Origin: Escherichia phage PJNS034
Direction: 5' to 3' (one strand)
Sequence record: PP391266.1
DNA: 64,000 nt
A program made the translations under genes and the position numbers. Under the pieces are notes generated by a model that searched no databases, was not told the origin of the DNA, and saw only the letters and a list, made by a program, of their open reading frames with translations. How positions within the stretch are numbered: position 1 is the first letter of the stretch; the number at the start of each line of letters is the position of its first letter. Below, one piece after another: positions 1 to 64,000 of the stretch.

Positions 1-91
1 GTTTGAGCATGTCTCAGAGTTTACTACTGTGACGGAACGTGGTGATGGTGCCTTTGGTTCTACTGGTAACACAATTGAGGGTTCCAAGTGA
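1..91 (+). CDS. 3' end of a gene that starts upstream of the window (last 29 codons)
   Basis: Open frame from base 2 to TGA at 89-91; contains in-frame copy of ACTACTGTGACG. Confidence 0.3.
   Translation, partial: FEHVSEFTTVTERGDGAFGSTGNTIEGSK
23..34 (+). repeat. 12-mer ACTACTGTGACG, copy 1
   Basis: Exact match, in frame (TTVT) in partial upstream ORF. Confidence 0.9.
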
Positions 92-387
92 TTGATAAAG
101 TTCTTGAACAATGTGCGTCGATTAATCAGCCTCGTTCGCTGGCTTCTGTGGCTCTTAAAGTTTCCGAAGAGACTGGTGAACTCGCACAAGCGGTCAACAA
201 GAACATCGGGAATGTTGTCGAAGAAGCAGCAGATGTAATCATCGCAGCAACTGACACGGCATTCCTCTATATCCGTGAAAAGTATGGTGCTGAAGAAGCT
301 ACGGCTGCTGGTGCTTTACTTGAAATGGCTGTAGCTGATAAACTCCAGAAGTGGAAAAATCTTTATTCTTTAGAAGGAAAGCGCTAA
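88..387 (+). CDS. MazG-like nucleotide pyrophosphohydrolase
   Basis: 99 aa; EETGELAQAV and EEAADVIIA motifs typical of MazG NTP-PPase; GTG start with GAGGG upstream. Confidence 0.55.
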   Translation: MIDKVLEQCASINQPRSLASVALKVSEETGELAQAVNKNIGNVVEEAADVIIAATDTAFLYIREKYGAEEATAAGALLEMAVADKLQKWKNLYSLEGKR

Positions 388-623
388 TGCTGAAAGTATA
401 TACCTCCCCTATGTGTGGCCCGTGTCATGTCCTGAAGAACCGCATCAAAGCGGCAACTGAAGCTGGTAAAGAACTTCCAGAACATGAAATTGTGGATATC
501 ACGAAGGTAGATAAATCTACTCTACCTGAAGGTGTGCGTACCATTCCAACCATCATCGACGAAGAAACTGGTGATGTGTTCACTGGTATTCAGGCAACCT
601 CTGAACGTATGGGTGTGAAGTAA
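387..623 (+). CDS. glutaredoxin/thioredoxin-fold redoxin (CGPC active site)
   Basis: 78 aa from internal ATG (RBS AGGAAAG); VYTSPMCGPCHVLK then TIPTIIDEETGDVFTG, glutaredoxin-fold pattern. Confidence 0.55.
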   Translation: MLKVYTSPMCGPCHVLKNRIKAATEAGKELPEHEIVDITKVDKSTLPEGVRTIPTIIDEETGDVFTGIQATSERMGVK

Positions 624-847
624 TGGAAGTACGTGACCTCCGTAACGTTCCGATTGACTCGTTGACTCCGCAGGAGATAGCTGGACGTCTGGCTCTGATT
701 TCTGATAGAATGAAGGAAGTCAGCGAGGAGTTCAGCGAGTTACAAGACATGTACTCCGCCCTCGTTGAAGAAACTCAACGACGTGTAAAACGAAAGGCGG
801 AAGAATATGATTCCATTACTCGCAGCGGCGATTCCAGCCGTAGCTAA
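623..847 (+). CDS. hypothetical protein
   Basis: 74 aa ORF, ATG start overlapping preceding stop. Confidence 0.35.
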   Translation: MEVRDLRNVPIDSLTPQEIAGRLALISDRMKEVSEEFSELQDMYSALVEETQRRVKRKAEEYDSITRSGDSSRS

Positions 848-1253
848 AATGTTAGGTATGGCAGCAGGAGCAGCGGCTGCCGGAGGCGGAGCAGCAGCAG
901 GTGGTGCAGCAGCCGCAGGTGCTGGTGGAGCGGCGGCAGGGGGTGCTGCTGCTGGGGCTGGTGCTGGAGGTGCTGCCGCAGGTGGAGCCGCCGCTGGTGG
1001 TTCAGGTGGTGGCATCCTCGGTTCTCTGGGCAATATGTTCGGAGGCGGTGGTGGCGGAGGTGGAATGTCCTTTGAGATGGGTTCGAAGGAAGATGAAGCC
1101 GGAGCCGCTGCTGTCATGAACCAAGCTAAGCAAGGTGCTCAGGGTGGTGCTGGTGGCGGTAACATGGGTTCACTTGATGCTGTAATGGCAATGAATGAAC
1201 GCCAACGCCGTGAAGCCGAAGAAGCTGCCCGTCGCTATGGAGGTGTTCGATAA
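807..1253 (+). CDS. Gly/Ala-rich low-complexity protein
   Basis: 148 aa; ATG with RBS; hydrophobic N-terminus, about 80 residues of G/A repeats encoded by GCN/GGN repeat DNA, charged C-terminus. Confidence 0.4.
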   Translation: MIPLLAAAIPAVAKMLGMAAGAAAAGGGAAAGGAAAAGAGGAAAGGAAAGAGAGGAAAGGAAAGGSGGGILGSLGNMFGGGGGGGGMSFEMGSKEDEAGAAAVMNQAKQGAQGGAGGGNMGSLDAVMAMNERQRREAEEAARRYGGVR

Positions 1254-1376
1254 TGCCTGTCCATAAGGTGAAGGGTGGCTATAAGTGGGGTTCGAAGGGT
1301 AAGGTGTACAAGAAGAAGTCTGACGCTGAGAAGCAAGGACGTGCAGCTTACGCTAATGGTTATCGAGGAGTATTAG

Positions 1377-1685
1377 ATGCCGTCAAGTCCTAACTATGTT
1401 CGTGACTACGACCAAGAACGCAAGACAGCCAAAAAGCGTGGTGAGACTGGTGTTGGTAAAAAGTCTGGTGACGCTCAGCGTCATCGTGCTCGTCGTAAGT
1501 TTGAGAAGGCAACAGGTCGCAAACTCGACAAAGACGAACACGTAGACCACAAACGTACAATTAAGAATGGAGGGACTAACAATCCTAAAAATCTTCGAGT
1601 GCGTAGCGCTTCTGATAATATGGCTGCTGGTGGTCGCAGTGGTAGTAAGGCGGGGAAAGCCGCCGGTGGTCGCAAAGGCAAGTAA
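1377..1685 (+). CDS. HNH endonuclease
   Basis: 102 aa; DEHVDHKRTIKNGGTNNPKNLRV matches HNH core; RBS GGAG before ATG. Confidence 0.55.
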   Translation: MPSSPNYVRDYDQERKTAKKRGETGVGKKSGDAQRHRARRKFEKATGRKLDKDEHVDHKRTIKNGGTNNPKNLRVRSASDNMAAGGRSGSKAGKAAGGRKGK

Positions 1686-1697
1686 GTGAGGTTGTGA

Positions 1698-1982
1698 ATG
1701 GGTAAAACAATTCGTCGTAAAGATGTAAAAGGTAATGGCGGTTACTACGAACACAAAGATGAAATCAGCATGGGTAAATCTACTGCTTATTATCACAGTG
1801 ACATGCCTTCTCGTGGAGGCCGCTGGAGAATGACCGGCCCTGCTAAGGAGGACGAAAAGGTAACTCGTCGCAACTACATGCACAACGTCAATGCTCGTGA
1901 TTTGTTGGATGAAGATGTTGACCTTGTTAATTGTGATAAGGTTTCTCGGAAACAAACCAACAAACACTATGCCCATTACTAA
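1698..1982 (+). CDS. hypothetical protein
   Basis: 94 aa ORF with RBS. Confidence 0.35.
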   Translation: MGKTIRRKDVKGNGGYYEHKDEISMGKSTAYYHSDMPSRGGRWRMTGPAKEDEKVTRRNYMHNVNARDLLDEDVDLVNCDKVSRKQTNKHYAHY

Positions 1983-1988
1983 AATCAA

Positions 1989-2016
1989 GGCTGGCTGAAA
2001 AGCTGGCCTTTCTTGT
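1989..2016 (+). terminator. rho-independent terminator (GNRA-loop hairpin plus T-run)
   Basis: GGCTGGCT-GAAA-AGCTGGCC followed by TTTCTTGTCTCT directly after stop of 1698-1982. Confidence 0.5.
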
Positions 2017-2028
2017 CTCTGAGGTATT

Positions 2029-2226
2029 ATGAAAGTCAGCATTGATTATATTATACGTTCTGCCATTCTTAAACATGGTGAACGGAAGTGGGCTTTGCTA
2101 GAAATCCAGCATAGCTTAGGTGTCAGTCGAACTCGTGCAAAAGAACTCTTCTTTGCTTTTACCTATCATGCAAATGAAGAAAACTTACAACGTATTGCTC
2201 GTGGTGAAAAGGTAGGTAAAATTTGA
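2029..2226 (+). CDS. hypothetical protein
   Basis: 65 aa ORF. Confidence 0.3.
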   Translation: MKVSIDYIIRSAILKHGERKWALLEIQHSLGVSRTRAKELFFAFTYHANEENLQRIARGEKVGKI

Positions 2227-2474
2227 GTATACAACGCATTATCGGTGAACTTGAAGATATCGAAGTTCGCATGGATTCTCTTGAAACAGAGAATGCTGAG
2301 TTACGTGATGAACTTAACCGTCTCGCTGAAGAACGTGATGAAGCTATCGAGGAGCGTGATGAAGCATTAGAGCAACTGGAAGTCGTAAACGACGCTCTTG
2401 CTCAGGGTGCAGATATCATTGCTCGTCAAAACGACGTGATTCGTGAATTAGAAAACGAACTCCAAGGAAGTTAA
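2223..2474 (+). CDS. hypothetical coiled-coil protein
   Basis: 83 aa, heptad-rich acidic sequence. Confidence 0.35.
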   Translation: MSIQRIIGELEDIEVRMDSLETENAELRDELNRLAEERDEAIEERDEALEQLEVVNDALAQGADIIARQNDVIRELENELQGS

Positions 2475-2475
2475 T

Positions 2476-4161
2476 TTGGCAAATATTTGGACAACTCCGC
2501 TCGCTTTGGAAGCGAAGATAGCAAACATTATCTCCAATCAAGGGAAACATGGTGTTAACTTCAACAAGGCCAAAGCAGCGTTCGGTGTGTTTGTTCTTGC
2601 AGAGAAGATTATAAACATCGACAAAGAGCTTGTCCCTATGCTTCCCATGATGATGCACGTGGGCACTGAATATAAGGCTCCATTCAAAGCGAATGGCGAC
2701 TTTAAGGTGTTTGTGCAGAAATATGCGGATAAGGTAGGGTTAAGTCGTTGCGATGTTGGTGGGCCGTTTACAGCGGTTCATTTCACACCATTTGACCCTT
2801 CCAAGACTGACCGCATGAAGCACGTCATGGCTGACGCTGGATGGGTTCCGGCAGTTTGGAATATCAAGAAGAATCCGATTCAAGAGTTGGATGGTCTTGG
2901 TTATATAGAGCGTCAGAATGCGGAAGCATTGCTTCTTGATAAGTATATCGAGAAGAACATCTTAGGTCATGGTGCTGCATGGACTGAGTTGATGTTGAAA
3001 GAGCTTAAATTCCGTGGACAGCGGAAGATTAGTAAGCTCAAAGAACACATCAGAAAGGCTCGTTATTGGCCTACTTCACCGAAGATTACACCAGATGAAG
3101 ACAAGTTCGTTGGTGATTCAAGAATCGGTGAATTAATTCAATCTCGTATGGTATGGTCACATCGTCGGTCATTACTTGAAGGATTGATTAAACTTGTCAG
3201 ACCAGATGGGAAGATTAGCGCTGATGCAAACAGTTGTGCAACACCCACTGCTCGTATGCGGCATCGTGGTGTGGTCAACATTCCTGCCGCTCGTGCTCCT
3301 TTTGGTTATTGGTGCCGAAGTCTTTTCATGGGAGACTATGACAAGACGGTTAAGAAAGGTTCTGTGTTCTATCCGTTTGGTAAGGAATTGCCAGAAGGAT
3401 TAAGACGTAAACCGGGCACAAACATTGTCGAGGAATACGACAAGAAGAAAGATAAATGGAAACACGCTGGTAAATATCGGAAGTTTGTTCCAGCGGGTCA
3501 ACATATCTTTGTTGGTTATGATGGTGCAGGTCTTGAACTTCGTATGTTGGCTCACTATGTTGGTGATGAAAACTTTACGAACCAGATTCTTCACGGTGAT
3601 ATTCATAGCCACAACCAGTCACTTGCTGGTCTTCCAACTCGTGATAACGCAAAGACGTTTATCTACGCATTCCTGTATGGTGCAGGTGATGCGAAAATCG
3701 GTTCTATCATCGGTGGTACTGCTGATGATGGTGCAGAAATCAAAGCTCGATTCATGAAATCACTTCCGAAACTTGCAGCACTGATTGAGCGTGTTCAACA
3801 GATTGCAGGAACTGATGGTTATGTCGAAGCGATTGATGGTCGTCGTTTGTATCTTCGTAAAGGTACGAATGGTAAGTATCAGACTCACAAAGCATTGAAC
3901 GTCTTGTTACAAGGTGCAGGTGCAATTGTCATGAAGTATGCGATGGCTTGGTTGGATTCTCAGATTAAGAAACAAGGTCTGAGGGCTTACAAGGTTATCG
4001 ACATGCACGATGAAGGGCAATTCTCAGTGCATCCTGATGATGTTCCAGCGGTTCGTGAACTGATGGAAAGTTGTGTTAAATGGGCTGGTGAGTTCTTGAA
4101 AATGAACTGTCCACTGGCATCCGATTCAATTGTTGGTCATGACTGGTTTGACACGCATTGA
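2476..4161 (+). CDS. DNA polymerase, family A, polymerase domain only (T7 gp5-like)
   Basis: 561 aa; motif A GYDGAGLELRMLAHY, motif B RDNAKTFIYAFLYGAG, motif C DMHDEGQF, C-terminal HDWFDTH; N-terminus aligns to T7 gp5 after its exonuclease domain; TTG start with AGGAAG RBS. Confidence 0.88.
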   Translation: MANIWTTPLALEAKIANIISNQGKHGVNFNKAKAAFGVFVLAEKIINIDKELVPMLPMMMHVGTEYKAPFKANGDFKVFVQKYADKVGLSRCDVGGPFTAVHFTPFDPSKTDRMKHVMADAGWVPAVWNIKKNPIQELDGLGYIERQNAEALLLDKYIEKNILGHGAAWTELMLKELKFRGQRKISKLKEHIRKARYWPTSPKITPDEDKFVGDSRIGELIQSRMVWSHRRSLLEGLIKLVRPDGKISADANSCATPTARMRHRGVVNIPAARAPFGYWCRSLFMGDYDKTVKKGSVFYPFGKELPEGLRRKPGTNIVEEYDKKKDKWKHAGKYRKFVPAGQHIFVGYDGAGLELRMLAHYVGDENFTNQILHGDIHSHNQSLAGLPTRDNAKTFIYAFLYGAGDAKIGSIIGGTADDGAEIKARFMKSLPKLAALIERVQQIAGTDGYVEAIDGRRLYLRKGTNGKYQTHKALNVLLQGAGAIVMKYAMAWLDSQIKKQGLRAYKVIDMHDEGQFSVHPDDVPAVRELMESCVKWAGEFLKMNCPLASDSIVGHDWFDTH

Positions 4162-4577
4162 TTCACCCTAATCATTTTAAAGGTGCGGCATCTGAAATGA
4201 AGGCTGCTGCACACTTCCTATCGAAAGGTTACGAAGTATTCTTTCCAGCTATCACACAAAGTGCGGCTGACTTCGTTGTAAAAAGTGAAAGGGGTTATGA
4301 AGGTGTTCAAGTCAAATCTGCAACACCTTTGAAGTCTGGTGAGGCGAACTACCTCCAAATACGACTACAAGGGAAACCTACTCCATATGCTACCCACAAC
4401 TATTTAGAAGGTGATTTCGAACATCTGGTAGTGGTTTATGGTGATATGATGTGGGACTTTCCGTGGGAATTAGTCAAAGACAAAACATCAATGACCTTCG
4501 GACGCCTGAATGAAGATGGAACGATATCTACATCAGGGCGAGGTGGTTATAACCCAGAGGATTACAGACTACGATGA
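4158..4577 (+). CDS. PD-(D/E)xK-type nuclease-like protein
   Basis: 139 aa; AAAHFLSKGYEVFFP...ADFVVKS...GVQVKS resembles Hjc/restriction-endonuclease-fold core. Confidence 0.35.
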   Translation: MIHPNHFKGAASEMKAAAHFLSKGYEVFFPAITQSAADFVVKSERGYEGVQVKSATPLKSGEANYLQIRLQGKPTPYATHNYLEGDFEHLVVVYGDMMWDFPWELVKDKTSMTFGRLNEDGTISTSGRGGYNPEDYRLR

Positions 4578-6137: not shown

Positions 6138-6215
6138 CTTGATGTAGCTCAGTTTGGTAGCAGCACTTGCTTTGGGAGCAAGGGGTCGAAGGTTCGAATC
6201 CTTCCATCAAGACCA
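6138..6215 (+). tRNA. tRNA-Pro (anticodon TGG)
   Basis: Manual cloverleaf: 7-bp acceptor CTTGATG/CATCAAG, anticodon arm CTTGC-TTTGGGA-GCAAG, T-arm GAAGG-TTCGAAT-CCTTC, 3' CCA. Confidence 0.7.
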
Positions 6216-6216
6216 A

Positions 6217-6298
6217 GTGGGATTGGCTGAGTGGTCGAAAGCACCTGACTGTAAATCAGGCATATCACGCGGTGGTTCGAATCCATCATCCCACACCA
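6217..6298 (+). tRNA. tRNA-Tyr (anticodon GTA)
   Basis: Acceptor GTGGGAT/ATCCCAC, anticodon arm CCTGA-CTGTAAA-TCAGG, long variable arm, TTCGAAT T-loop, CCA. Confidence 0.7.
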
Positions 6299-6300
6299 AA

Positions 6301-6377
6301 GCGTCACTAACTCAATTGGTTAGAGTAGCGGTCTTTTAAACCGCAGGTTCTGAGTTCGAGTCTCAGGTGGCGTACCA
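6301..6377 (+). tRNA. tRNA-Lys (anticodon TTT)
   Basis: Anticodon arm GCGGT-CTTTTAA-ACCGC, T-arm CTGAG-TTCGAGT-CTCAG, CCA. Confidence 0.7.
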
Positions 6378-6379
6378 AA

Positions 6380-6469
6380 GGAAGTTAGGGCTTTGTGGAA
6401 AGCAATCGGTCTTGAAAACCGACCCACTGTAGCGATATGGTGATGGTTCGACTCCATTAGCTTCCTCCA
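6380..6469 (+). tRNA. tRNA-Ser (anticodon TGA)
   Basis: Anticodon arm TCGGT-CTTGAAA-ACCGA, long variable arm, TTCGACT T-loop, CCA. Confidence 0.65.
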
Positions 6470-6471
6470 AT

Positions 6472-6548
6472 TGTTTCGTAGCTCAGTTGGTAAGAGCGTT
6501 CGGCTGATAACCGAAAGGTCACAAGTTCGAGTCTTGTCGAAACAACCA
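6472..6548 (+). tRNA. tRNA-Ile (anticodon GAT)
   Basis: Canonical cloverleaf: TGTTTCG/CGAAACA acceptor, GCTC-AGTTGGTAA-GAGC D-arm, TTCGG-CTGATAA-CCGAA, TTCGAGT T-loop, CCA. Confidence 0.8.
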
Positions 6549-6551
6549 AAT

Positions 6552-6640
6552 GACGGGTTGGCAGAGTTGGTTTATTGCAGCAGCTTGCTAAGTTGCCGAG
6601 TCGAAAGGCTCCGTGGGTTCGAATCCCACACCCGACGCCA
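6552..6640 (+). tRNA. tRNA-Ser (anticodon GCT)
   Basis: Anticodon arm GCAGC-TTGCTAA-GTTGC, long variable arm, GTGGG-TTCGAAT-CCCAC, CCA; one acceptor mismatch. Confidence 0.55.
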
Positions 6641-6641
6641 A

Positions 6642-6717
6642 GGACGATAAGCACATGTGGATGTGCGGCAGGCTGTTAACCTGATGGCAGTTGGTTCGAA
6701 TCCAACATCGTCCGCCA
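6642..6717 (+). tRNA. tRNA-Asn (anticodon GTT)
   Basis: Acceptor GGACGAT/ATCGTCC, loop CTGTTAA, T-arm GTTGG-TTCGAAT-CCAAC, CCA. Confidence 0.6.
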
Positions 6718-6719
6718 AT

Positions 6720-6794
6720 AGCGAGATAGTTCAGTGGTAGAATATCGGTTTCATACGCCGACCGTCGATGGTTCGATTCCATCTCTCGCTACCA
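6720..6794 (+). tRNA. tRNA-Met (anticodon CAT; elongator, initiator or lysidine-Ile not distinguishable)
   Basis: Acceptor AGCGAGA/TCTCGCT, anticodon arm TCGGT-TTCATAC-GCCGA, T-arm GATGG-TTCGATT-CCATC, CCA. Confidence 0.65.
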
Positions 6795-6810
6795 AACCTC
6801 TTTATCCGAT

Positions 6811-6882
6811 GGGAGTGTCCTTCTGGGAAGGATGTGGATTCCAACCCCACTAAGTAGAGTTCGATTCTTTACACTCCCGCCA
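6811..6882 (+). tRNA. tRNA, anticodon TCC (Gly) or alternatively CCA (Trp) depending on stem register
   Basis: Acceptor GGGAGTG/CACTCCC, loop region GGATTCCAACCCC, T-arm TAGAG-TTCGATT-CTTTA, CCA. Confidence 0.5.
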
Positions 6883-6889
6883 AATCCCT

Positions 6890-6966
6890 AGCCTTGTAGT
6901 GTAGTCTGGTTAGCACACGTGACTTTGACTCACGGAGCTTAGGTTCGAATCCTGACAGGGCTGCCA
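6890..6966 (+). tRNA. tRNA-Gln (anticodon TTG)
   Basis: Acceptor AGCCTTG/CAGGGCT, anticodon arm CGTGA-CTTTGAC-TCACG, T-arm TTAGG-TTCGAAT-CCTGA, CCA. Confidence 0.7.
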
Positions 6967-8136: not shown

Positions 8137-8916
8137 ATGGCTAAGATTCCTTCTTCTCGTTCCGCTAAAGTTTCCAAAGTTCAGTACGAAGCAACCAAAC
8201 CGGGTCTGTACCCTGCACGTCTGGTTCGTTTCACCGGTCTGGGCACTCAGCCTCAGCCAGAGTTCCAAGGTCAGGCTAAAGACCCTGCACCGAAAGTAGC
8301 TGTAATGTTTGAGTTGTATGACCCGCAGACAGCGAAACCTCTGGATGTTATCGGTGTGAACATCGAAACGGAAGAGAAGGTGGCACGTCCTTCTTGTGTG
8401 TTCCAAGACTACTTCCTGTTCCCAGGCGCTACTCGTGGTAAAGTCTTCGAGTTGACTCAGGCTCTGGATGCAAGCATGGAAAAAGTTCCAGATGATTTCG
8501 AATGGTTCCTGTCTCGTCTCGGTGCTCCAGTTCAGGTTCAGGTAGGCAACTACAAGAAGAAAGATGGTTCTGTTGGTGTTAAAGTTGTTTCCGTAACAGG
8601 TGTCAACTCTTTCGTTTCCAACGCAATGGAACCTGCTCGTTCTGAACTGGTTGGCTTTGACCCATACGATGATAACGTTGAGAAGTTCGAACGTGCTTAT
8701 GCTCAGATGTTCCCATTCCAGCGTACCATGCTGAAAGATGCACTGGATGCGAAACACATTCCTCTGGCTGGTACTGAACCAGTTAAGATTGACGATAACC
8801 CAGCTAACACTGAAAACCGTCAGACTTCCAAGCCGGAAACTACTGTGACGCAAACTGGTTCTGCTCCAAGCGAACCGACTGGTAATTGGGAAGATGACGA
8901 CGACCGTCCTTTCTAA
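8137..8916 (+). CDS. single-stranded DNA-binding protein-like (acidic C-terminal tip)
   Basis: 259 aa; C-terminus WEDDDDRPF resembles the acidic DDD-IPF / terminal-Phe tail of SSB and T7 gp2.5; strong RBS. Confidence 0.5.
   Translation: MAKIPSSRSAKVSKVQYEATKPGLYPARLVRFTGLGTQPQPEFQGQAKDPAPKVAVMFELYDPQTAKPLDVIGVNIETEEKVARPSCVFQDYFLFPGATRGKVFELTQALDASMEKVPDDFEWFLSRLGAPVQVQVGNYKKKDGSVGVKVVSVTGVNSFVSNAMEPARSELVGFDPYDDNVEKFERAYAQMFPFQRTMLKDALDAKHIPLAGTEPVKIDDNPANTENRQTSKPETTVTQTGSAPSEPTGNWEDDDDRPF
8839..8850 (+). repeat. 12-mer ACTACTGTGACG, copy 3
   Basis: Exact, codons 235-238 of SSB-like gene. Confidence 0.9.
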
Positions 8917-8927
8917 TTAAATAATAA

Positions 8928-8952
8928 CCTCGCCTTCGGGCGGGGTTTCTTT
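8928..8952 (+). terminator. rho-independent terminator (UUCG tetraloop)
   Basis: CCTCGCC-TTCG-GGCGGGG then TTTCTTT, just after SSB stop. Confidence 0.6.
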
Positions 8953-8974
8953 GTCCCTAAATTCGAGGTAATAC

Positions 8975-9172
8975 ATGGCTGCTAAGCTGACAATTAAACG
9001 TACTGAAAAAGATAACTTCCACATTCGCTTTGGTAACTTCGAAACTTACCTGACCTTTGTTGAACTGAGCGAAATCAGTGAACAAATTCGTGAAGTGGTA
9101 AGTGATGAAGAGTCTCGTCTGCTACAGGCAGAACTGAGCGGTTCTCTGGTTTGTGATGGTTGCACTATTTAA
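8975..9172 (+). CDS. hypothetical protein
   Basis: 65 aa ORF with RBS. Confidence 0.35.
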   Translation: MAAKLTIKRTEKDNFHIRFGNFETYLTFVELSEISEQIREVVSDEESRLLQAELSGSLVCDGCTI

Positions 9173-9175
9173 GGA

Positions 9176-9475
9176 ATGAAGATGGAAAAGTTAAAGATTG
9201 CAGGTTGTGGTAAAGTTCATCGTGAAGGTCGTTTCATTCACTTCGAAGTAAAACAGAAATCTCCCGGTTCTGCTTACCTGAAGGTAGTAGGCCAGATTCT
9301 GAATATCGTTGATGCTACTGGTCAGCGTGAGAACATCATCATTGACGTGAACAGTGACCACCCTGAGTTACATGCAATGCGAGCTAACTTGCATCGTATG
9401 CACCGTCATACTGGCATCAAGGTAATGATTCGTCGTCATGGCGTACATGGCACTGTAACTGAGTTCGGGTGGTAA
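9176..9475 (+). CDS. hypothetical protein
   Basis: 99 aa ORF. Confidence 0.35.
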   Translation: MKMEKLKIAGCGKVHREGRFIHFEVKQKSPGSAYLKVVGQILNIVDATGQRENIIIDVNSDHPELHAMRANLHRMHRHTGIKVMIRRHGVHGTVTEFGW

Positions 9476-9476
9476 T

Positions 9477-9698
9477 ATGGAATTAGAGGTTGGTCGTCGC
9501 TATAAAGTGCTTTACCGTAATTACAAAGGTGAATGGGCTTGGCGTAAGATTGAAGTCATTGGCTTCAACTTCAAGGTCAACACATTCCATAGCCCACAGG
9601 AGGCTCTATACTTAACTGTGCTGGACGTAGAGCGTGAAGTAGTACGAGACTTCAAACCGTCTGACATTCGTGCTGTAACTCGCAAGGGAGCGAAATGA
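9477..9698 (+). CDS. hypothetical protein
   Basis: 73 aa ORF. Confidence 0.35.
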   Translation: MELEVGRRYKVLYRNYKGEWAWRKIEVIGFNFKVNTFHSPQEALYLTVLDVEREVVRDFKPSDIRAVTRKGAK

Positions 9699-9846
9699 CA
9701 GTATATGTCTTAATGGTTGAGAACCAAGTTGAAAGTGAGTGGGTGTTTGAGATGGACTCTATCTACTCCACTCACGAGAAAGCAACTGCGGCAGGGAAAG
9801 CCTTGCCAAGTGATTTTAATTTCTATGTCGAACCGATGGAGGTCGA

Positions 9847-10119
9847 ATGAGCGCATTAAATACTATGGTTGGTGGTTCACACTATCAGGCAGAAGGTGGC
9901 ATTCAGCCGATTCAGTTCTACCACGCAAATCCACAGTTGAACTTTCAACAGTGTAATATGATTAAGTATGCTTTCCGTCACAAAGATAAGAACGGTTTGC
10001 AGGACTTACTCAAGGTTGTGCATTATGCCATGCTGGAGGCAGAGTTCCATTATCCGAAAGAAGATGTTGAGAAGTGGAAGTTACAGGTAGCGAATCTGAT
10101 TGACCCACCTGCTTTTTGA
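9847..10119 (+). CDS. hypothetical protein
   Basis: 90 aa ORF. Confidence 0.35.
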   Translation: MSALNTMVGGSHYQAEGGIQPIQFYHANPQLNFQQCNMIKYAFRHKDKNGLQDLLKVVHYAMLEAEFHYPKEDVEKWKLQVANLIDPPAF

Positions 10120-12047: not shown

Positions 12048-12267
12048 CAGTATATTAACTAAGGTCACTTCGGTGGCCTTTTCTTTCATCTAACTATAGG
12101 CAAAACAATGAAACAGGCTGTATTTGATTTCGCTTCTCGCATGGTCGATAAGCTGACTGCTGATTATGACAAAGCAGAAACCTCTGACGTTGCAGAACGC
12201 ATCATGTCAGAACTCAAAAACTACATCAAAATGCGTGATGATGCACAACGTTCTCTGGAGAAAGCTA

Positions 12268-12807
12268 ATGCGTAAGGTTTATATTGCAGGTCATATGTTA
12301 ACTCGTGGTGCTCAGATGCAACGTGCTGAGGAACGTGAGCTGGTATCTTCTTTGGGTCATCAACTCTACAACCCAATGGACAACAAGGAAATTAACGACA
12401 AGAAGCTCCACAAGGACGATACAGGGCTGGCTGAACGAATCGTTAAGCAAGACACCGACGCTATTTTCTGGGCTGATACAGTGCTGATTGAGCCGCTTGC
12501 TGAGGCAAATGGCACTCTGGTTGAGTTAGGACAGATTAAAGGTATGAAAGACCTCGCCAAGAAGCTGATGGAGTTACCTGCAACAAATGAGATTGAGTTC
12601 GCTGACCAAGCAATTGAATTGCTCAAACGAATCCTAGACCAGAAGGTTGTTGCTCACTTCGAAGATATCCGACGTGTCGAAGGTATCACCGAAACAGGCG
12701 ACCGTCGCTCTCTTGGCATTAACCAGTATGTATATGGTACTGTCCTTGACCTGACAGATGGCAAAGGCTTCACTGAGTTTAAAGACTTGCCGGAGGCTCT
12801 TGCTTGA
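12268..12807 (+). CDS. nucleoside 2-deoxyribosyltransferase / Rcl-like N-glycosidase family protein
   Basis: N-terminal VYIAGHM and C-terminal NGTLVELG match the NDT-family Rossmann and catalytic-Glu motifs; ATG 12268 with GGAG RBS. Confidence 0.55.
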   Translation: MRKVYIAGHMLTRGAQMQRAEERELVSSLGHQLYNPMDNKEINDKKLHKDDTGLAERIVKQDTDAIFWADTVLIEPLAEANGTLVELGQIKGMKDLAKKLMELPATNEIEFADQAIELLKRILDQKVVAHFEDIRRVEGITETGDRRSLGINQYVYGTVLDLTDGKGFTEFKDLPEALA

Positions 12808-13466
12808 ACTGGAGATTAATATGGTCAGTCTTTGCCGTGCTATCCATTCTGTTTGGGTGCGTTGTTTCAAAAGCAAGTTACGAAGTAATGGCGACGTCCC
12901 TAGTGGGCGTCATGTTCGTGATAGGGGTAGCCTTCAAGAAAGCAAGTGCGAATCTTTTGGGGGCTATACTGTGCGCTATGCTTGGGTTGATGAGCTGGCA
13001 AGCTGGATACTACATGAACGCGATTATCAACATCTTCTTATTGCTACCACTCCAGTTATTAGCTTACGCCAATTGGACGACAGGGGTGTCGAAGCGAGAG
13101 CATCACAGGTACTTGGTGGAAACGGTCTGTCGCAAACGATTCTTGATTTACACATGTTGGCTAATTCCTCTCTTGGTAGCCGCATACTTCTCAGGCAGCC
13201 GTTTGTGGGTACACGATGCTGTGACAGCCTCACTTGTGATTGTCGCAACACTTCTCCTCATGTTCAATACCAAAGAGCAATGGCAATTCTGGATTCCATA
13301 CAATCTGGTAGAAGTCTTCATGTGGTTCATCGCAGCGAGTACAGCCCCTGAAATGCTTGCAATTATGTTCATGCGTATTGTATTCTTCATTAACAGTCTG
13401 ATTGGCTATTACGAATGGAGGAACGATGGCAATCCACGGACGCTACTTTCGACAGAAACCCGCTGA
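12804..13466 (+). CDS. PnuC-like (nicotinamide riboside/nucleoside transporter family) membrane protein
   Basis: 220 aa, multiple TM segments, AYANW...KREHH region resembles PnuC signature; start codon uncertain (TTG 12804 or downstream ATG). Confidence 0.4.
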   Translation: MNWRLIWSVFAVLSILFGCVVSKASYEVMATSLVGVMFVIGVAFKKASANLLGAILCAMLGLMSWQAGYYMNAIINIFLLLPLQLLAYANWTTGVSKREHHRYLVETVCRKRFLIYTCWLIPLLVAAYFSGSRLWVHDAVTASLVIVATLLLMFNTKEQWQFWIPYNLVEVFMWFIAASTAPEMLAIMFMRIVFFINSLIGYYEWRNDGNPRTLLSTETR

Positions 13467-38550: not shown

Positions 38551-40731
38551 TTATTGTGGAAGTGTGGTTGTTGGTTTGCGAGTTCCCATAGACAGGGCTA
38601 CAGGTCGCTGTTGAGCCATTTCAAGTTGAGCTTCAATCTCAATCTGACGAGCCTTGAGGTCTAACTCTTGCTTCATCAGCTCAAGCTCCAGCATCTTGAG
38701 TTCCAGCTTACGTTCTTCAAGTTCCAATCCACGTTCAGCAACAAACGAATCACTAGCCATCTTACTCTGACGAGATTCAGATTCAGCTTGGTCAATGTTC
38801 ATCTTATCACCTGCAACCGCTTCATCCAACTCAGCACGTTTCAGCTTAGCTTGCGCTTCCATCTGCTCAGCCTGCATACGACCAGTTGCAACTTCCATCT
38901 CATTCTGAATCTTCTGGAGTTCAAGTTGAACACGTTGTGATTCGAGTTCGATACGTTGCTGCTCAGCTTGCTGTTCTGGAGTCGGGCCTTGAGGTTGAAC
39001 TTGTTCCATCGGAGTGATGAAGTTGTTCACATCATAGAATCCCATTGCCAGTGTAAGTTCACGAGCAAGGTGGTTTGCATTCTCAGCGGTGAAAGTAGTA
39101 CCAGCCAGTAACGGGTTCTGGGTCAAGAACTGAGAGAGTTGTACAAGGTTGTTAGCACGTTCACGACGTTCGTTCTGACCAATCGCAACTGCAACAATCA
39201 CTTTGTCTCGGTCAGGCCAATTCGCTGGCATGACTTCCTTCATCTCACCATTAACTTCAATACGGAGGGTGTTTGTTTCACTCTCTTTCAGAAGACGGTA
39301 GATAGCAAGGAACAGTTGAGTCATGAAGTTCTGAGCGATGTTACGAGCAACCATACGCATACGGTTCTGTGCAGCACTCATCATCATATCAACAGTAGCG
39401 TAGCTGTTGTCGTTCTTAAACACTTCAGGGGACAAGCCCATGCCGATACGGGTTACACCAGTACGACGTTCTTTAGCTTGTTCGATTTGTTCAAGGATAT
39501 TATCAACACCTGCTGGCAGGGGGTGATGTGGGAACAGGTCTACCATCCCTACAGCATTCTCTTCTACTACACCACCCGGACGGTTATCCAGAAGGGAGCG
39601 CTTATCATACTGACCTTTAACAGCACGGAAGCGACCATAGTTAGCAGACATGATGTTATCAATGTAACCACGAACCAGTGCAGTCTTAACGTTCTGAATG
39701 TCACGAGTAATATCGAAGACTGACTCACCAATGATGCTGCCCGGAACAGGGAATGGGGTACAGACGTCGAATGGAATCTCACTCACTTCCTCGTAACTGA
39801 CAATCTGGTTGTTCACTTGGAACACCTGATACAGACGAGTCTTACGTCCTTTCAGATTAGTACGAACATAGACTTCATCTACGATGTACTTCTCAAAGTC
39901 ACGTGGGTCGCCAAAGTCCAGACCAGTCATGTCTTGGTCACGAGTCATTTCGATATCTTCTGCCACAAGGTCAGTTGAACCTGCACGAGCACGTTCGATA
40001 TCTTCTTCATCAAAGCCAAGGTCTACCAGTTCGTTACGAGTCTTCTGAACACGATGGCGGAAGTATGAACATTCCTGAATATTCTTGGAGAATTGGTCGA
40101 AGTCGATTTCCTCAGCGGGAACAAACTCAACACGTACACCAGAGGTATTCACTGGAATGGAGATAGTAGCAGAAACAGTACCATCGTCATTCTTCTCAAT
40201 CGTCAACATTGAATCGTCAACTTCATCATTGTCGTCATATTCAGACAGGATGATTTTCAGTTCGTCTTCAGTGACATGCTCCACCTTACGAACGTCTTGT
40301 TCAACAGAATGCTGCCAGTAACGTTTAACAAACGAAACTTTAGACAGGAGACACTCTTTGAATGCGTCGTGAAGTGTGATGTAACCGGGGTTGTCACGCA
40401 GCAGAACTTTGTTAACCATTGCAGTAGCAGCACGGGCACCATCTGCATCGTAACTGTTTAGAGGAGCAAATCGAACAGCATCTTCACCTGATGTAAATAC
40501 ATTGAGCAGGTCTTGAAGAGTACCGTTAACTGATTCCCATACAGTTCGGTCAACATAAGAACTACCACCGCGAGTATAAGCAGCAGGAAGTTCACCATAG
40601 TAATACTTGTATGCCTCCTTGATTGATTCACCCAACTTACCTTCCGTAATCGTCAGACTACGACCAGTAAATTGGGTGATGGCTGACTTGAGTTTAGTTA
40701 ACTCTTTCGTGTCACGTTTAATCGCCATCAC
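38551..40731 (-). CDS. portal protein
   Basis: 726 aa, directly downstream of terminase large subunit, C-terminal Gln/Glu coiled-coil. Confidence 0.6.
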   Translation of the reverse strand: MMAIKRDTKELTKLKSAITQFTGRSLTITEGKLGESIKEAYKYYYGELPAAYTRGGSSYVDRTVWESVNGTLQDLLNVFTSGEDAVRFAPLNSYDADGARAATAMVNKVLLRDNPGYITLHDAFKECLLSKVSFVKRYWQHSVEQDVRKVEHVTEDELKIILSEYDDNDEVDDSMLTIEKNDDGTVSATISIPVNTSGVRVEFVPAEEIDFDQFSKNIQECSYFRHRVQKTRNELVDLGFDEEDIERARAGSTDLVAEDIEMTRDQDMTGLDFGDPRDFEKYIVDEVYVRTNLKGRKTRLYQVFQVNNQIVSYEEVSEIPFDVCTPFPVPGSIIGESVFDITRDIQNVKTALVRGYIDNIMSANYGRFRAVKGQYDKRSLLDNRPGGVVEENAVGMVDLFPHHPLPAGVDNILEQIEQAKERRTGVTRIGMGLSPEVFKNDNSYATVDMMMSAAQNRMRMVARNIAQNFMTQLFLAIYRLLKESETNTLRIEVNGEMKEVMPANWPDRDKVIVAVAIGQNERRERANNLVQLSQFLTQNPLLAGTTFTAENANHLARELTLAMGFYDVNNFITPMEQVQPQGPTPEQQAEQQRIELESQRVQLELQKIQNEMEVATGRMQAEQMEAQAKLKRAELDEAVAGDKMNIDQAESESRQSKMASDSFVAERGLELEERKLELKMLELELMKQELDLKARQIEIEAQLEMAQQRPVALSMGTRKPTTTLPQ

Positions 40732-40740
40732 CGCTCCTAA

Positions 40741-55170: not shown

Positions 55171-55352
55171 TGGAAGAAGGTCTGCTGATTAGCTGGGTTG
55201 AATCTCCAGCGAACCGTAAGACCAAGACTCATACCCTCTTCTTCGAAAGCCTGGACGAGGGTTATGAGTTCATGGCCTCTAAAAGTTGTGTAATTCAAGT
55301 ACAACGCATTCCACTGGTGAGAAAGAATGGCGAAACTGGTAACGGTAAATAA
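55170..55352 (+). CDS. hypothetical small protein
   Basis: 60 aa, ATG overlapping upstream stop. Confidence 0.3.
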   Translation: MEEGLLISWVESPANRKTKTHTLFFESLDEGYEFMASKSCVIQVQRIPLVRKNGETGNGK

Positions 55353-55518
55353 CGCAGATAAAACTGTAACTCGTCGTGTCTTTATGGACAACGAAGAGGG
55401 TATCATGTGGGCAGTTGACCAAGCCCGCACAGCACTGTCAGTCGTGACTGATGATGTGGAAGTGGTCGAGGCTTCCAGCCGTAAAGGTTGGGAAGGTCAT
55501 ATCGCATGTGATTGCTAA
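55327..55518 (+). CDS. hypothetical small protein
   Basis: 63 aa ORF. Confidence 0.3.
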   Translation: MAKLVTVNNADKTVTRRVFMDNEEGIMWAVDQARTALSVVTDDVEVVEASSRKGWEGHIACDC

Positions 55519-55542
55519 TTTAAACTGAACGAGAGAACTAAA

Positions 55543-56975: not shown

Positions 56976-56976
56976 C

Positions 56977-57192: not shown

Positions 57193-57202
57193 TTAACTCA
57201 AG

Positions 57203-57224: not shown

Positions 57225-57278
57225 GGTAATCATTACCACAAACTATTGAAACTAACTATTGAACTTGAGGAAAGTATT

Positions 57279-62737: not shown

Positions 62738-64000
62738 TTGTCCCAAGAGTATCAAGGTGGTAAACGATTAACGCACGACGGCCCATGTCCAACATGTCGT
62801 TCTCATGGACGTGACAGAACTGGCAACCACTTACAGTTCTGGGAGAATGATAAAGGCGAGCATTGGGCTTTCTGTAACCGATGCGGTCACTACGAAGACG
62901 ATGGAAACAAACTCGGCTCGTATGAAAAGAAAGAACGTCGTGAGTTAAGCGATGAAGAAGTAGCGGAGGTGTTGTCAGAGATTGCCGAACTTCCGTATCA
63001 AGCGTTGGGTAGTCGTGGTATCACATTAGCAGTTGCCGAACGTTATGGTGTTCGTGTTGGATTAAGTCCACAGGACGGACAAACTCAAGTCTCTCACTTC
63101 TATCCGAAGATGAAGGGCAAGGATATCACTGGTTACAAAGTACGTCAGTTGAATCCGAAGTTCTTTTATCATCAAGGTCGTGGTGGTGGATGTGACTTGT
63201 TTGGTATGCAGCAAGCGTTGTTGAAGGATGTGTTTAAACATTCGTTGTATATCTTCGAAGATGAGTTGTCGGCAATGTCTGGTTTTCAGGTATTGAAACA
63301 ATTCGCAAAAGAGGGTTACAAGAACTACTCACCAGCGGTTGTTTCATTGCCAGATGGAACGAAATCAGCAGCACGAGTGTGTGGTCAGAACCGTGAGTTC
63401 ATCCAGAGTTTCAAAGAAGTTGTTGTCTGTATGGATAACGACAAAGCTGGTGATGATGCGGTTGAAGTGATTCGTTCACTTTATCCTGACAAAGTAAAAG
63501 TGGTACGACTTCCGCTGAAAGATGCGAACGATATGCTTATGGCAGGTCGTGAAATGGAGTTGTATCAGCACTTACGATTCAATGCCAAGACTGAGACGCC
63601 AGACGGTGCAGTATCCATTATGGATTGCATTGAAGATGCGTTGAAGAAACCGGAATGGGGTTTATCATTCCCGTGGCAGGGTCTTACGAACTTAACTTAT
63701 GGCATTCAGTACGGTGAGATTATCGCTGTTGGTGGTGGTGTAGGTTTGGGTAAGACCTTGATTGGTCATGAGTTGTGTGCTCACTTGATTAATGTCGAGA
63801 AACAACGAATCGGCATGTTCATGCTGGAGGAAACTGTTGGCAATACCATCAAGAACATTTCTGGTAAGGTTGCTAATATTCCTTTCCATCGCCCAGATGT
63901 TGAGTATGACCCTCAAACCCTTCGTGACGTAGCAATGTCGTTTGGCGACAATGTAGCGTTGTGGCAGAACAAAGGTCAGAACTCATGGGAGAACATTAAG
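62738..64000 (+). CDS. DNA primase-helicase (T7 gp4-like), 5' part; continues beyond window
   Basis: TTG start after GAGGT RBS; Zn-ribbon CPTCRS...CNRCGH, TOPRIM-like VVVCMDNDKAGDDA, helicase Walker A GGGVGLGKT; open to window end. Confidence 0.8.
   Translation, partial: MSQEYQGGKRLTHDGPCPTCRSHGRDRTGNHLQFWENDKGEHWAFCNRCGHYEDDGNKLGSYEKKERRELSDEEVAEVLSEIAELPYQALGSRGITLAVAERYGVRVGLSPQDGQTQVSHFYPKMKGKDITGYKVRQLNPKFFYHQGRGGGCDLFGMQQALLKDVFKHSLYIFEDELSAMSGFQVLKQFAKEGYKNYSPAVVSLPDGTKSAARVCGQNREFIQSFKEVVVCMDNDKAGDDAVEVIRSLYPDKVKVVRLPLKDANDMLMAGREMELYQHLRFNAKTETPDGAVSIMDCIEDALKKPEWGLSFPWQGLTNLTYGIQYGEIIAVGGGVGLGKTLIGHELCAHLINVEKQRIGMFMLEETVGNTIKNISGKVANIPFHRPDVEYDPQTLRDVAMSFGDNVALWQNKGQNSWENIK

What the first reader, a model, noticed from the sequence alone, without database searches (positions are those of the whole stretch)
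2476..4161. T7-like DNA polymerase lacks its 3'-5' exonuclease domain within this gene
The 561-aa product contains all polymerase-domain motifs and aligns to T7 gp5 from roughly residue 200 onward, so the N-terminal proofreading domain is not part of this ORF. The 2.4 kb upstream carries unrelated small genes (MazG, CGPC redoxin, Gly/Ala-rich protein, HNH endonuclease) and a PD-(D/E)xK-like nuclease follows the polymerase directly. The exonuclease is either encoded separately beyond the window start (split gene, perhaps by invasion of the HNH-containing block) or is absent. The adjacent phage-encoded CGPC redoxin is notable because T7 polymerase uses host thioredoxin as a processivity factor.
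Basis: partly seen in the sequence, partly recalled or inferred. Interest (0 to 1): 0.55.

Follow-up and report, generated by a model that had tools for sequence, protein, structure and literature searches.

The report
Polymerase half of a split PolA
This phage gene is the polymerase-only half of a T7-type DNA polymerase whose proofreading exonuclease is a separate small gene just outside the window, an arrangement already described for LUZ24-like and phiEco32-like phages, so the finding is real but ordinary.

Summary
ORF 2476-4161 (561 aa) is a family A, T7-like DNA polymerase that starts at about T7 gp5 residue 207. It has all the catalytic motifs but no 3'-5' exonuclease domain. An in-frame stop lies 8 codons upstream, and no DnaQ-type exonuclease is detectable anywhere in the 64-kb window.

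The exonuclease is almost certainly not absent. The window is nearly a whole circular phage map, and its two ends (primase-helicase at 62738-64000, dUTPase tail at 2-88) lie about 1.7 kb apart in relatives. In a ~96%-identical contig (L017), in Pantoea phage TacPo2 and in all eight relatives checked, that stretch holds a stand-alone 170-185-aa DEDDy exonuclease. This protein is homologous to T7 gp5 residues 1-195 in both sequence and predicted structure.

This non-adjacent exo/pol split is the published organisation of LUZ24-like ("DNA polymerase part I/II") and phiEco32-like phages. A related, adjacent split is described for S-SBP1-like cyanophages. The split is ancient and the intervening genes vary, so a recent HNH invasion is not supported.

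The CGPC redoxin occurs only in the TacPo2-like clade. Relatives without it keep the same ordered thumb-tip module, so nothing links it to the polymerase.

This is a new member of a known kind, of low interest.

The parts
2476..4161 (+). Polymerase-only subunit of a split T7-like family A DNA polymerase ('DNA polymerase part II' type), 561 aa
   Evidence: PF00476 5.6e-36. T7 gp5 is the best match by sequence (1e-46) and by structure (AF2 pLDDT 89.1; Foldseek 1sl1_A E 1.3e-28). It is 94% identical to TacPo2_32 and 45-50% to LUZ24-like 'part II' and phiEco32-like polymerases. Motifs A, B and C are invariant.
62738..64000 (+). T7 gp4-like primase-helicase, N-terminal 421 aa, cut off by the window end. 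In relatives the exonuclease gene lies about 0.8 kb beyond this point.
   Evidence: tblastn with TacPo2_22 gives 91.9% identity over aa 1-421. TacPo2_22 carries Toprim_2 and DnaB_C. Window 60903-64000 is 96.4% identical to L017 2128-5225.
2..88 (+). 3' end (last 29 codons) of a dUTPase gene cut off by the window start. In relatives the exonuclease gene lies immediately upstream of this dUTPase.
   Evidence: tblastn with TacPo2_25 (PF00692 dUTPase) matches aa 132-160 at 86%. The L017 dUTPase tail aligns.
88..2474 (+). Window part of the variable gene block that separates exo from pol. It holds a MazG-like gene (88-387), a short CGPC redoxin (351/387-623), a 74-aa ORF, a Gly/Ala-rich ORF (807-1253), a 46-aa ORF, an HNH-like gene (1377-1685), 94-aa and 65-aa ORFs, and a coiled-coil ORF (2223-2474).
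   Evidence: Pfam and PHROGs hits. The same block order occurs in L017, L011 and TacPo2. The block has different content in L005, L006, phPSJM and SU7.
4158..4577 (+). PD-(D/E)xK nuclease gene, a strain-specific 417-bp insertion exactly between the pol stop codon and the start of the next gene. It is not part of the polymerase system.
   Evidence: PF11645 3.1e-8 and PHROG 5018. It is absent from L002 (99% pol identity), TacPo2, L011 and L014, where pol abuts the next gene as ...CACTAATGATTCGT....

Best explanation
The ORF is the polymerase subunit of a two-gene, T7-type replicative DNA polymerase. The proofreading 3'-5' exonuclease (DEDDy/DnaQ fold, ~183 aa, equivalent to T7 gp5 residues 1-195) is made from a separate gene. 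That gene sits directly after the primase-helicase gene and before the dUTPase gene, in the ~1.7 kb of the circular genome map that the 64-kb window does not cover. This places it ~2.4 kb and about ten genes upstream of pol. The break falls in the exo-pol interdomain linker. The two polypeptides most likely reassemble non-covalently into a gp5-like enzyme that proofreads in trans. What is shown: the domain content of the window ORF, the absence of any exonuclease in the window, the presence and intact catalytic motifs of the exonuclease gene in all relatives, and its homology to the gp5 exonuclease domain. What is inferred: that the gene is present in this exact genome, and that the two proteins associate and proofread together.
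For: The ORF is pol-only with intact motifs. There is a stop 8 codons upstream and no exonuclease HMM hit in the window. The window ends are primase-helicase aa 1-421 and the dUTPase tail. L017 is 96.4% and 89.6-96.8% identical on the two sides and bridges them over 1712 nt, which contain a 183-aa PF01612 exonuclease. The same order occurs in TacPo2 (PF01612 1.6e-9), L003, L005, L006 and L011-L016. The exonuclease motifs Exo I D-x-E, Exo II H-N-x-x-D-x-D and Exo III Y-x-x-x-D are invariant. The exonuclease AF2 model (pLDDT 92.7) has T7 gp5 as its top 27 PDB matches (E ~1e-12, 30-32% identity), well ahead of other DEDD nucleases (>=3.5e-6). All of the ten detected exonuclease homologues are stand-alone proteins of 166-185 aa. 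All top 120 polymerase homologues carry only PF00476 or no recorded domain, none with an exonuclease domain; the 115 that cover 99-100% of the query are 496-618 aa. Published precedent exists: pol and 3'-exo are separate genes in all LUZ24-group phages and in phiEco32 (PMC3517423), and they are annotated as 'DNA polymerase part I/II' (PMC3890496). AlphaFold2 predicts an exo+pol complex for split S-SBP1 PolA (PMC10201439).
Against: The exonuclease gene of this exact genome was not seen. No record spanning the window edges was found, so its presence rests on synteny with relatives of 86-96% identity. No experiment or complex prediction for this lineage shows that the two proteins bind each other. 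The genes are not adjacent, so coupled expression is not guaranteed.
Confidence: 0.87

Rival explanations
1. The phage truly lacks a proofreading exonuclease, and the polymerase works as an exo-minus enzyme.
For: No exonuclease is detectable in the 64 kb that were available.
Against: About 1.7 kb of the circular map is missing from the window, and it is exactly the stretch that carries the exonuclease gene in L017 (~96% identical), TacPo2, L011-L016, L003, L005 and L006. Both truncated flanking genes are present at the window edges.
Confidence: 0.03
2. The separate exonuclease exists but has taken on an independent role (for example DNA end processing or host DNA degradation), and the polymerase replicates without associated proofreading.
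For: The two genes are 2.4-9 kb apart with 6 to about 21 genes between them in different lineages. The polymerase has acquired two lineage-specific ordered insertions, at ~145-236 and ~290-343.
Against: exo and pol co-occur in every genome examined. The exonuclease is closest in sequence and predicted structure to the gp5 exonuclease domain and keeps all catalytic residues. Together the two proteins are colinear with gp5, broken only at the linker. AlphaFold2 predicts association for the analogous S-SBP1 pair (PMC10201439).
Confidence: 0.08
3. The phage CGPC redoxin (387-623) replaces host thioredoxin as a processivity subunit bound to the polymerase thumb.
For: The polymerase has an insertion at the thumb-tip position of the T7 thioredoxin-binding domain, 48 aa against ~71 aa in T7, with similarity at the edges. 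The redoxin has CGPC and a cis-Pro 'TIPT' loop and hits Pfam Thioredoxin at 2e-5. phiEco32-like SU7 also has a thioredoxin-domain gene between exo and pol.
Against: Redoxin homologues are found only in the TacPo2-like clade: 3 clusters in 5.8 billion proteins, and TacPo2 alone in the phage collection. L005, L006 and Bruynoghevirus polymerases have a thumb module of similar length (46-48 aa) but no such redoxin in the loci examined, and the two LUZ24-group papers read do not mention thioredoxin. The SU7 protein is only 28% identical, with a pairwise E of 7e-5. The thumb module is predicted to be ordered (strands and a helix, pLDDT ~88-92), unlike T7's flexible loop. The redoxin is a 78-aa minimal Trx/Grx fold that lacks the N-terminal beta-alpha of E. 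coli TrxA; its best PDB match is 1FO5. It lies next to dUTPase and MazG. Relatives instead carry glutaredoxin next to RNR cassettes in the same region.
Confidence: 0.05
4. The missing domain is an artefact or is restored at the RNA or protein level, through a sequencing frameshift, an intron, programmed frameshifting or a split intein.
For: One paper loosely calls the two LUZ24-like genes 'exons' (PMC3890496). LUZ24 has an intron elsewhere in pol (PMC3517423).
Against: No exonuclease-like coding potential exists in any frame of the 2.4 kb upstream. The same start and architecture recur in independent assemblies and isolates. Ten ORFs lie between the two genes. The exonuclease (183 aa) and polymerase N-terminus have no spare sequence for intein halves, because together they match gp5 end to end.
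Confidence: 0.01

Closest known systems
LUZ24-like (Bruynoghevirus) 'DNA polymerase part I' (3'-5' exonuclease, ~171-175 aa) and 'part II' (~545 aa)
   Same: The gene order is the same: amidoligase/GATase/ATP-grasp/GGCT genes, primase-helicase, small exonuclease, several small genes, then a pol-only gene. The polymerases are 45-50% identical. The break is in the same linker, and the polymerases share the insertions at ~145-236 and ~290-343 and a shortened thumb-tip module of similar length. The tf-type nick motif is also shared.
   Different: The genome is ~65.7 kb rather than ~45 kb. The intervening block differs (dUTPase, MazG, redoxin, Gly/Ala-rich and HNH-like genes). The window's pol has no intron, unlike LUZ24.
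phiEco32-like phages (Gordonclarkvirinae, e.g. SU7, SGF2)
   Same: There is a separate 182-aa exonuclease directly after primase-helicase, 42% identical to the TacPo2 exonuclease. The pol-only gene is ~43-46% identical. A thioredoxin-domain gene and HNH genes lie in the intervening block.
   Different: exo and pol are ~9 kb apart with about 21 genes between them. In SU7 the pol is additionally interrupted by an HNH gene near its 3' end.
S-SBP1-like cyanophage split T7-like PolA (Czernecki et al. 2023, PMC10201439)
   Same: It is a T7-like cluster #5 PolA split into exo and pol polypeptides at the same interdomain linker, with S-SBP1 pol residue 9 aligned to T7 212. The TBD is shortened. The partner exonuclease keeps its DEDD motifs.
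   Different: There the genes are adjacent and overlapping, the result of a recent +1 frameshift fission. That pol is 421 aa without the two insertions. In the window's lineage the genes are non-adjacent and the split is old, so the events are probably independent.
T7 gp5 (unsplit, 704 aa) with host thioredoxin
   Same: It is the best sequence and structural match for both halves. It shares Tyr at motif B position 3, the C-terminal His, and the gp4-like primase-helicase, gp6-like 5'-3' exonuclease, ligase and endonuclease I genes in the same module.
   Different: T7 gp5 is a single polypeptide. It has a ~71-aa flexible TBD that binds E. coli thioredoxin, where the window polymerase has a 48-aa module predicted to be ordered.
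E. coli Pol III alpha (DnaE) / epsilon (DnaQ)
   Same: It is a functional analogy only: polymerase and DEDD proofreading exonuclease are separate polypeptides that work as one complex (established knowledge).
   Different: The polymerase family is unrelated (family C), and epsilon binds through a different interface.

Membership tests
T7-like family A DNA polymerase (PolA cluster #5 / cd08643) | PolA catalytic motifs A, B and C, with Tyr at motif B position 3 | tested here: met
   D349/E354, R389/K393/Y397 and H511-D512-E513 are invariant in 41 homologues. PF00476 5.6e-36. The cluster #5 Tyr rule comes from PMC10201439.
T7-like family A DNA polymerase (PolA cluster #5 / cd08643) | Closest solved relative is T7 gp5, by sequence and by fold | tested here: met
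   phmmer gives 1e-46 against gp5, compared with 6e-18 for Klenow. Foldseek's top 27 hits are all gp5, E down to 1.3e-28.
T7-like family A DNA polymerase (PolA cluster #5 / cd08643) | N-terminal 3'-5' exonuclease domain in the same polypeptide | tested here: not met
   The ORF starts at about gp5 residue 207, with a stop 8 codons upstream. The window has no exonuclease HMM hit.
T7-like family A DNA polymerase (PolA cluster #5 / cd08643) | Thioredoxin-binding domain of >=50 aa at the thumb tip (present in only ~29% of the cluster, per PMC10201439) | tested here: inconclusive
   A 48-aa insertion sits at the homologous site, with similarity only at its edges. It is predicted to be ordered. Binding was not testable.
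LUZ24/phiEco32-type split PolA ('part I' + 'part II') | Pol-only ORF of ~545-615 aa homologous to 'DNA polymerase part II' | tested here: met
   45-50% identity at 99-100% coverage to the polymerases of Pseudomonas phages tf, Ka1 and fHoPae04 ('part II'), and 43% to Shigella phage SGF2.
LUZ24/phiEco32-type split PolA ('part I' + 'part II') | Separate ~170-185-aa DEDDy exonuclease gene directly downstream of the primase-helicase gene | not testable with these tools
   That position lies in the ~1.7 kb outside the window. The feature is met in all relatives: L017, TacPo2, L003, L005, L006, L011-L016, phPSJM and SU7. No record of the window's own genome was found.
LUZ24/phiEco32-type split PolA ('part I' + 'part II') | exo and pol non-adjacent, separated by a variable block of small genes | tested here: met
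   Ten ORFs occupy window 88-2474, between the dUTPase tail and pol. The block content varies among lineages.
LUZ24/phiEco32-type split PolA ('part I' + 'part II') | Physical association of the two gene products, with proofreading in trans | not testable with these tools
   Only single-chain structure prediction was available. An analogous AlphaFold2 complex is reported for S-SBP1 (PMC10201439).
S-SBP1-type PolA gene fission | exo and pol adjacent and overlapping, created by a local frameshift | tested here: not met
   S-SBP1 exo (8273-8788) overlaps pol (8749-10014). In the window's lineage the genes are ~2.4 kb apart.
Thioredoxin-type processivity factor of a T7-like polymerase | Redoxin co-inherited with the polymerase or its thumb module | tested here: not met
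   The redoxin is restricted to the TacPo2-like clade, whereas the thumb module is conserved in redoxin-less relatives.

The most novel reading that the evidence does not exclude
The two ordered insertions specific to this non-adjacent split lineage (about residues 145-236 and 290-343) could be adaptations for working as a multi-subunit enzyme. One possibility is that they clamp the free exonuclease subunit. Another is that, in the TacPo2-like clade, the thumb-tip module recruits the phage's own mini-thioredoxin as a self-supplied processivity factor. Either would make this a three-protein version of the T7 gp5/thioredoxin holoenzyme encoded entirely by the phage.
Probability: 0.06. Interest if true: 0.55.

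Novelty: new member of a known kind. Interest (0 to 1): 0.15.

Why it matters
The result mainly serves annotation. Every CDS of the closest GenBank phage (TacPo2) is labelled 'hypothetical protein'. This work assigns its replication module and the window's: primase-helicase, a separate proofreading exonuclease, dUTPase, MazG, the polymerase subunit, a 5'-3' exonuclease, ligase and endonuclease I. It also links this ~65-kb Pantoea/Erwinia-type phage lineage to the LUZ24-like and phiEco32-like replication supergroup. It extends the known range of the old, non-adjacent exo/pol split of T7-like PolA, which is distinct from the recent adjacent fission in cyanophages. It does not reveal a new mechanism.

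Tried and rejected
1. I looked for the window's own genome so as to see the exonuclease directly. Exact-protein look-ups of the polymerase and MazG found nothing. Exact 40-mers from the window's ends found nothing in viral contigs (both ends); the start 40-mer alone also found nothing in metagenome contigs or genome contigs. The best available substitute is L017, at ~96% identity.
2. The search for related loci in viral contigs with the polymerase alone gave no confirmed relatives.
3. A frameshift or upstream in-frame extension was rejected, because a stop lies 8 codons upstream and no exonuclease signal exists in any frame.
4. An intein or trans-splicing was rejected, because the two proteins together are colinear with gp5 and have no spare sequence.
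5. An RNR context for the redoxin inside the window was rejected, because no RNR or glutaredoxin is detectable in the window. Relatives do carry Grx+RNR cassettes in the same region.
6. Recent HNH-mediated splitting was rejected, because the split predates the divergence from Bruynoghevirus and Gordonclarkvirinae.
7. The phiEco32 primary paper (PMC2587145) is not held, so I relied on its citation in PMC3517423.
8. Prediction of exo-pol or pol-redoxin complexes was not possible with the single-chain structure tool.
Full report
**1. Observation**

The ORF at 2476-4161 (+ strand, TTG start preceded by AAGGAAG, 561 aa) is present as described. Pfam detects only the family A polymerase domain (PF00476, E 5.6e-36, residues 336-558).

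Among solved structures the best sequence match is T7 gp5, at E 1e-46 compared with 6e-18 for Klenow. Three colinear local alignments were found: window 94-144 to T7 322-375, 237-288 to 406-459, and 344-559 to 470-702. A MAFFT alignment places window residue ~5 opposite T7 ~208, which is in the linker between the gp5 exonuclease and polymerase domains.

Motif A (D349, E354), motif B (R389, K393, Y397), motif C (H511-D512-E513) and the C-terminal His are invariant in an alignment of 41 homologues. An AlphaFold2 model is confident (mean pLDDT 89.1), and its 27 best PDB matches are all T7 gp5 chains, with E down to 1.3e-28.

The polymerase reading frame has a stop 8 codons upstream of the start. 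A profile built from the T7 gp5 N-terminus and six stand-alone homologues finds nothing in the six-frame translation of the whole window, even at E<=10. The same profile scores 1e-67 to 1e-87 on every relative.

- The MazG-like gene is just under Pfam's cut-off but is supported by PHROG 1247 (1.7e-20).
- The CGPC redoxin passes Pfam's Thioredoxin cut-off.
- The Gly/Ala-rich ORF matches no family.
- The small HNH-like gene is below Pfam's cut-off.
- The PD-(D/E)xK gene after pol hits PF11645 at 3.1e-8.

**2. Where the exonuclease is**

The closest deposited genome is Pantoea phage TacPo2 (PP496723.1; 65,025 bp, circular; every CDS annotated 'hypothetical protein'). Its DNA is 86% identical over the aligned parts, and its polymerase is 94% identical.

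TacPo2 has this gene order:
- primase-helicase (Toprim + DnaB_C)
- a 97-aa ORF
- a 182-aa protein with PF01612, DNA_pol_A_exo1 (E 1.6e-9)
- dUTPase
- MazG
- redoxin
- further small genes
- polymerase

The window begins inside the last 29 codons of the dUTPase gene (2-88). It ends at residue 421 of the 580-aa primase-helicase (62738-64000). The window is therefore almost a full turn of a circular map. The piece it lacks is exactly the piece that carries the exonuclease gene.

A Logan contig, L017, is the closest relative found. It is 96.4% identical to window 60903-64000, 89.6% to window 6-2032 and 96.8% to window 2224-3548. It bridges the two window ends continuously. The uncovered stretch is 1712 nt and contains the primase-helicase 3' end, a 100-aa ORF, a 183-aa PF01612 exonuclease and the dUTPase 5' part.

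The same arrangement is found in L011-L016, L003 (82% polymerase identity), L005 (71%) and L006 (61%). I could not retrieve the window's own record. The presence of the gene in this exact genome is therefore inferred from synteny, at a probability I put above 95%.

**3. What the exonuclease is**

The stand-alone proteins align to T7 gp5 residues 1 to ~195. Exo I (FDIETD), Exo II (GHNIVDFD) and Exo III (YCTQD) motifs are all conserved, and identity to gp5 is about 32%. The AlphaFold2 model of the L017 protein (pLDDT 92.7) has T7 gp5 as its top 27 PDB matches (E ~1e-12, TM 0.72). Other DEDD nucleases score no better than 3.5e-6.

All ten detected homologues are stand-alone proteins of 166-185 aa. 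Exonuclease plus polymerase are thus colinear with gp5, broken only at the interdomain linker. No spare sequence is left for intein halves.

**4. Comparison with what is known**

None of the 120 best polymerase homologues carries an exonuclease domain: 119 have only PF00476 and one truncated cluster has no recorded domain, and the 115 that cover 99-100% of the query are 496-618 aa. The named ones are 'DNA polymerase part II' or 'DNA polymerase I' of LUZ24-like Pseudomonas phages (tf, Ka1, BroderSalsa, fHoPae04; 48-50% identity) and the polymerases of phiEco32-like or related phages (SGF2, APT65; 43-45%).

In annotated genomes the module is the same. In Bruynoghevirus phPSJM the order is GATase, ligase-like, GGCT, primase/helicase, 'putative exonuclease', six small genes, DNA polymerase. 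In SU7 (Gordonclarkvirinae) it is amidoligase, aminotransferase, ATP-grasp, GGCT, primase/helicase, a 182-aa 'DNA polymerase' (the exonuclease), then about 21 genes over ~9 kb, then the polymerase. The SU7 polymerase is itself interrupted by an HNH gene. The window carries the same upstream amidoligase/GATase/ATP-grasp/GGCT genes.

The literature states this organisation explicitly. [quoted passage not shown] UFV-P2 is annotated with 'DNA polymerase part I' (171 aa) and 'part II' (546 aa) (PMC3890496).

Czernecki et al. 2023 (PMC10201439) describe a different, recent fission in S-SBP1-like cyanophages. There the genes are adjacent and overlapping and arose by a +1 frameshift, and an AlphaFold2 exo+pol complex superposes on an unsplit relative. 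The window's split breaks at the same linker, with S-SBP1 pol residue 9 aligned to T7 212. It differs in three ways: the genes are non-adjacent, the split is old, and the polymerase is larger. Compared with T7, the polymerase has two ordered insertions (about 145-236 and 290-343) that it shares with phPSJM.

**5.

(a) Splitting by invasion of the HNH block. The intervening block differs between lineages:
- window/TacPo2: dUTPase, MazG, redoxin and others
- L006: glutaredoxin plus RNR
- Bruynoghevirus: six small genes
- SU7: about 21 genes

The split itself is shared across polymerases only 43-50% identical. The HNH-like gene is a conserved resident of the TacPo2-like clade. The idea is not supported.

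(b) Redoxin as processivity factor. The protein is a 78-aa minimal Trx/Grx fold. It hits Pfam Thioredoxin at 2e-5, its best PDB match is 1FO5, and it falls in PHROG 22 'thioredoxin domain'. Homologues exist only in the TacPo2-like clade: three clusters in 5.8 billion proteins, and TacPo2 alone among 50,697 phage records. The SU7 thioredoxin-domain protein is only 28% identical.

The thumb-tip insertion at the T7 TBD position is 48 aa, against ~71 in T7. It keeps a similar length (46-48 aa) in L005, L006 and phPSJM, where no homologue of the redoxin was found in the loci examined. It is predicted to be ordered.

The window has no RNR or glutaredoxin. The redoxin lies in a nucleotide-metabolism cluster, however, and relatives carry Grx-RNR cassettes in the same region. 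The most economical reading is a general or dNTP-supply redox role. The processivity idea remains untested, and I give it about 5%.

**6. Mechanism**

The polymerase subunit carries out synthesis. The DEDDy subunit most likely docks where the gp5 exonuclease domain sits and supplies proofreading in trans. This is analogous to Pol III alpha/epsilon and to the predicted S-SBP1 complex.

Shown here: the domain content, the motif integrity, the co-occurrence of the two genes in all relatives, and colinearity with gp5. Inferred: the presence of the exonuclease gene in this exact genome, the physical association, and the activity.

**7. Verdict**

The arrangement is the already-published hallmark of the LUZ24/phiEco32 replication module, seen here in a previously unannotated ~65.7-kb Pantoea-type phage lineage. 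It is a new member of a known kind, of low interest (0.15).

**8. Side observations**

(i) The nick-site consensus of phage tf (TACT/RTGMC) occurs 9 times in the window, all on the + strand. About 2.0 are expected, and none of 100 shuffles reached 9. The extended consensus is ACTACTRTGACG. Relatives show the same strand bias. This suggests tf/T5-like localized nicks.

(ii) The PD-(D/E)xK gene at 4158-4577 is a precise 417-bp insertion, absent from a strain with 99% polymerase identity and from TacPo2.

(iii) Ten tRNA genes lie at 6138-6966.

(iv) The Gly/Ala-rich ORF is built on imperfect GC-rich repeats and is hypervariable among relatives.

Noticed in passing
window + strand: 25, 5033, 8841, 13851, 46571, 48483, 50642, 54357, 59975 (9-mers): The localized-nick consensus of Pseudomonas phage tf (5'-TACT/RTGMC-3', PMC3517423) occurs 9 times, all on the + strand and all within the two + strand gene arms. 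About 2.0 are expected, and 0 of 100 shuffles reached 9. The extended consensus is ACTACTRTGACG in 9/9. Relatives show the same strand-exclusive pattern (TacPo2 region 6/0, L003 3/0, L005 3/0, L011 3/0, L017 2/0, phPSJM region 2/0). This suggests site-specific single-strand interruptions in virion DNA, as in tf and T5.
   Followed up: partly
window 4158-4577 (+): The PD-(D/E)xK nuclease gene (PF11645, PHROG 5018) is a precise 417-bp insertion between the pol stop codon and the start codon of the next gene. It is absent from L002 (99% pol identity), TacPo2, L011 and L014, where the two genes abut as ...CACTAATGATTCGT.... It behaves like a free-standing mobile nuclease gene.
   Followed up: partly
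window 6138-6966 (+): A cluster of 10 tRNA genes lies directly downstream of the replication genes: Pro, Tyr, Lys, Ser-UGA, Ile, Ser-GCU, Asn, Met, Trp, Gln. TacPo2 has 11 with a partly different set (Glu and Phe present, no Pro).
   Followed up: no
window 807-1253 (+), repeats 891-1063: The Gly/Ala-rich 148-aa ORF is built on imperfect GC-rich tandem repeats (periods 9-42). The region does not align to TacPo2, and the ORF length varies among relatives (133 aa in L017, 112 aa in L011). The antisense Pro/Ala-rich ORF at 740-1117 is probably a by-product of the repeat composition.
   Followed up: partly
window 54361-61311 (+): A conserved set of genes lies upstream of primase-helicase: amidoligase-like, class II glutamine amidotransferase (57189-58871), ATP-grasp (59160-60653) and gamma-glutamyl cyclotransferase-like (60838-61311). 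The same set occurs in LUZ24-like and phiEco32-like phages. Its function in infection is unknown. These assignments rest on the annotations of the corresponding genes in relatives; the window ORFs themselves were not scanned against any family library.
   Followed up: no
window 12166-13466 (+): Between ligase and endonuclease I sit a nucleoside 2-deoxyribosyltransferase-like gene (PF05014, below cut-off) and a PnuC-like nicotinamide mononucleotide transporter (PF04973, 1.6e-21). A relative (L005) carries a NAPRTase. This hints at phage-encoded NAD salvage.
   Followed up: no
L019 (E. coli phage SU7, record 39150-41601): In SU7 the pol-only gene is further broken near its 3' end. A 570-aa 'DNA polymerase' is followed by an HNH endonuclease gene and then a 51-aa 'DNA polymerase' fragment. 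The replicase of that phage is therefore encoded in three pieces.
   Followed up: no
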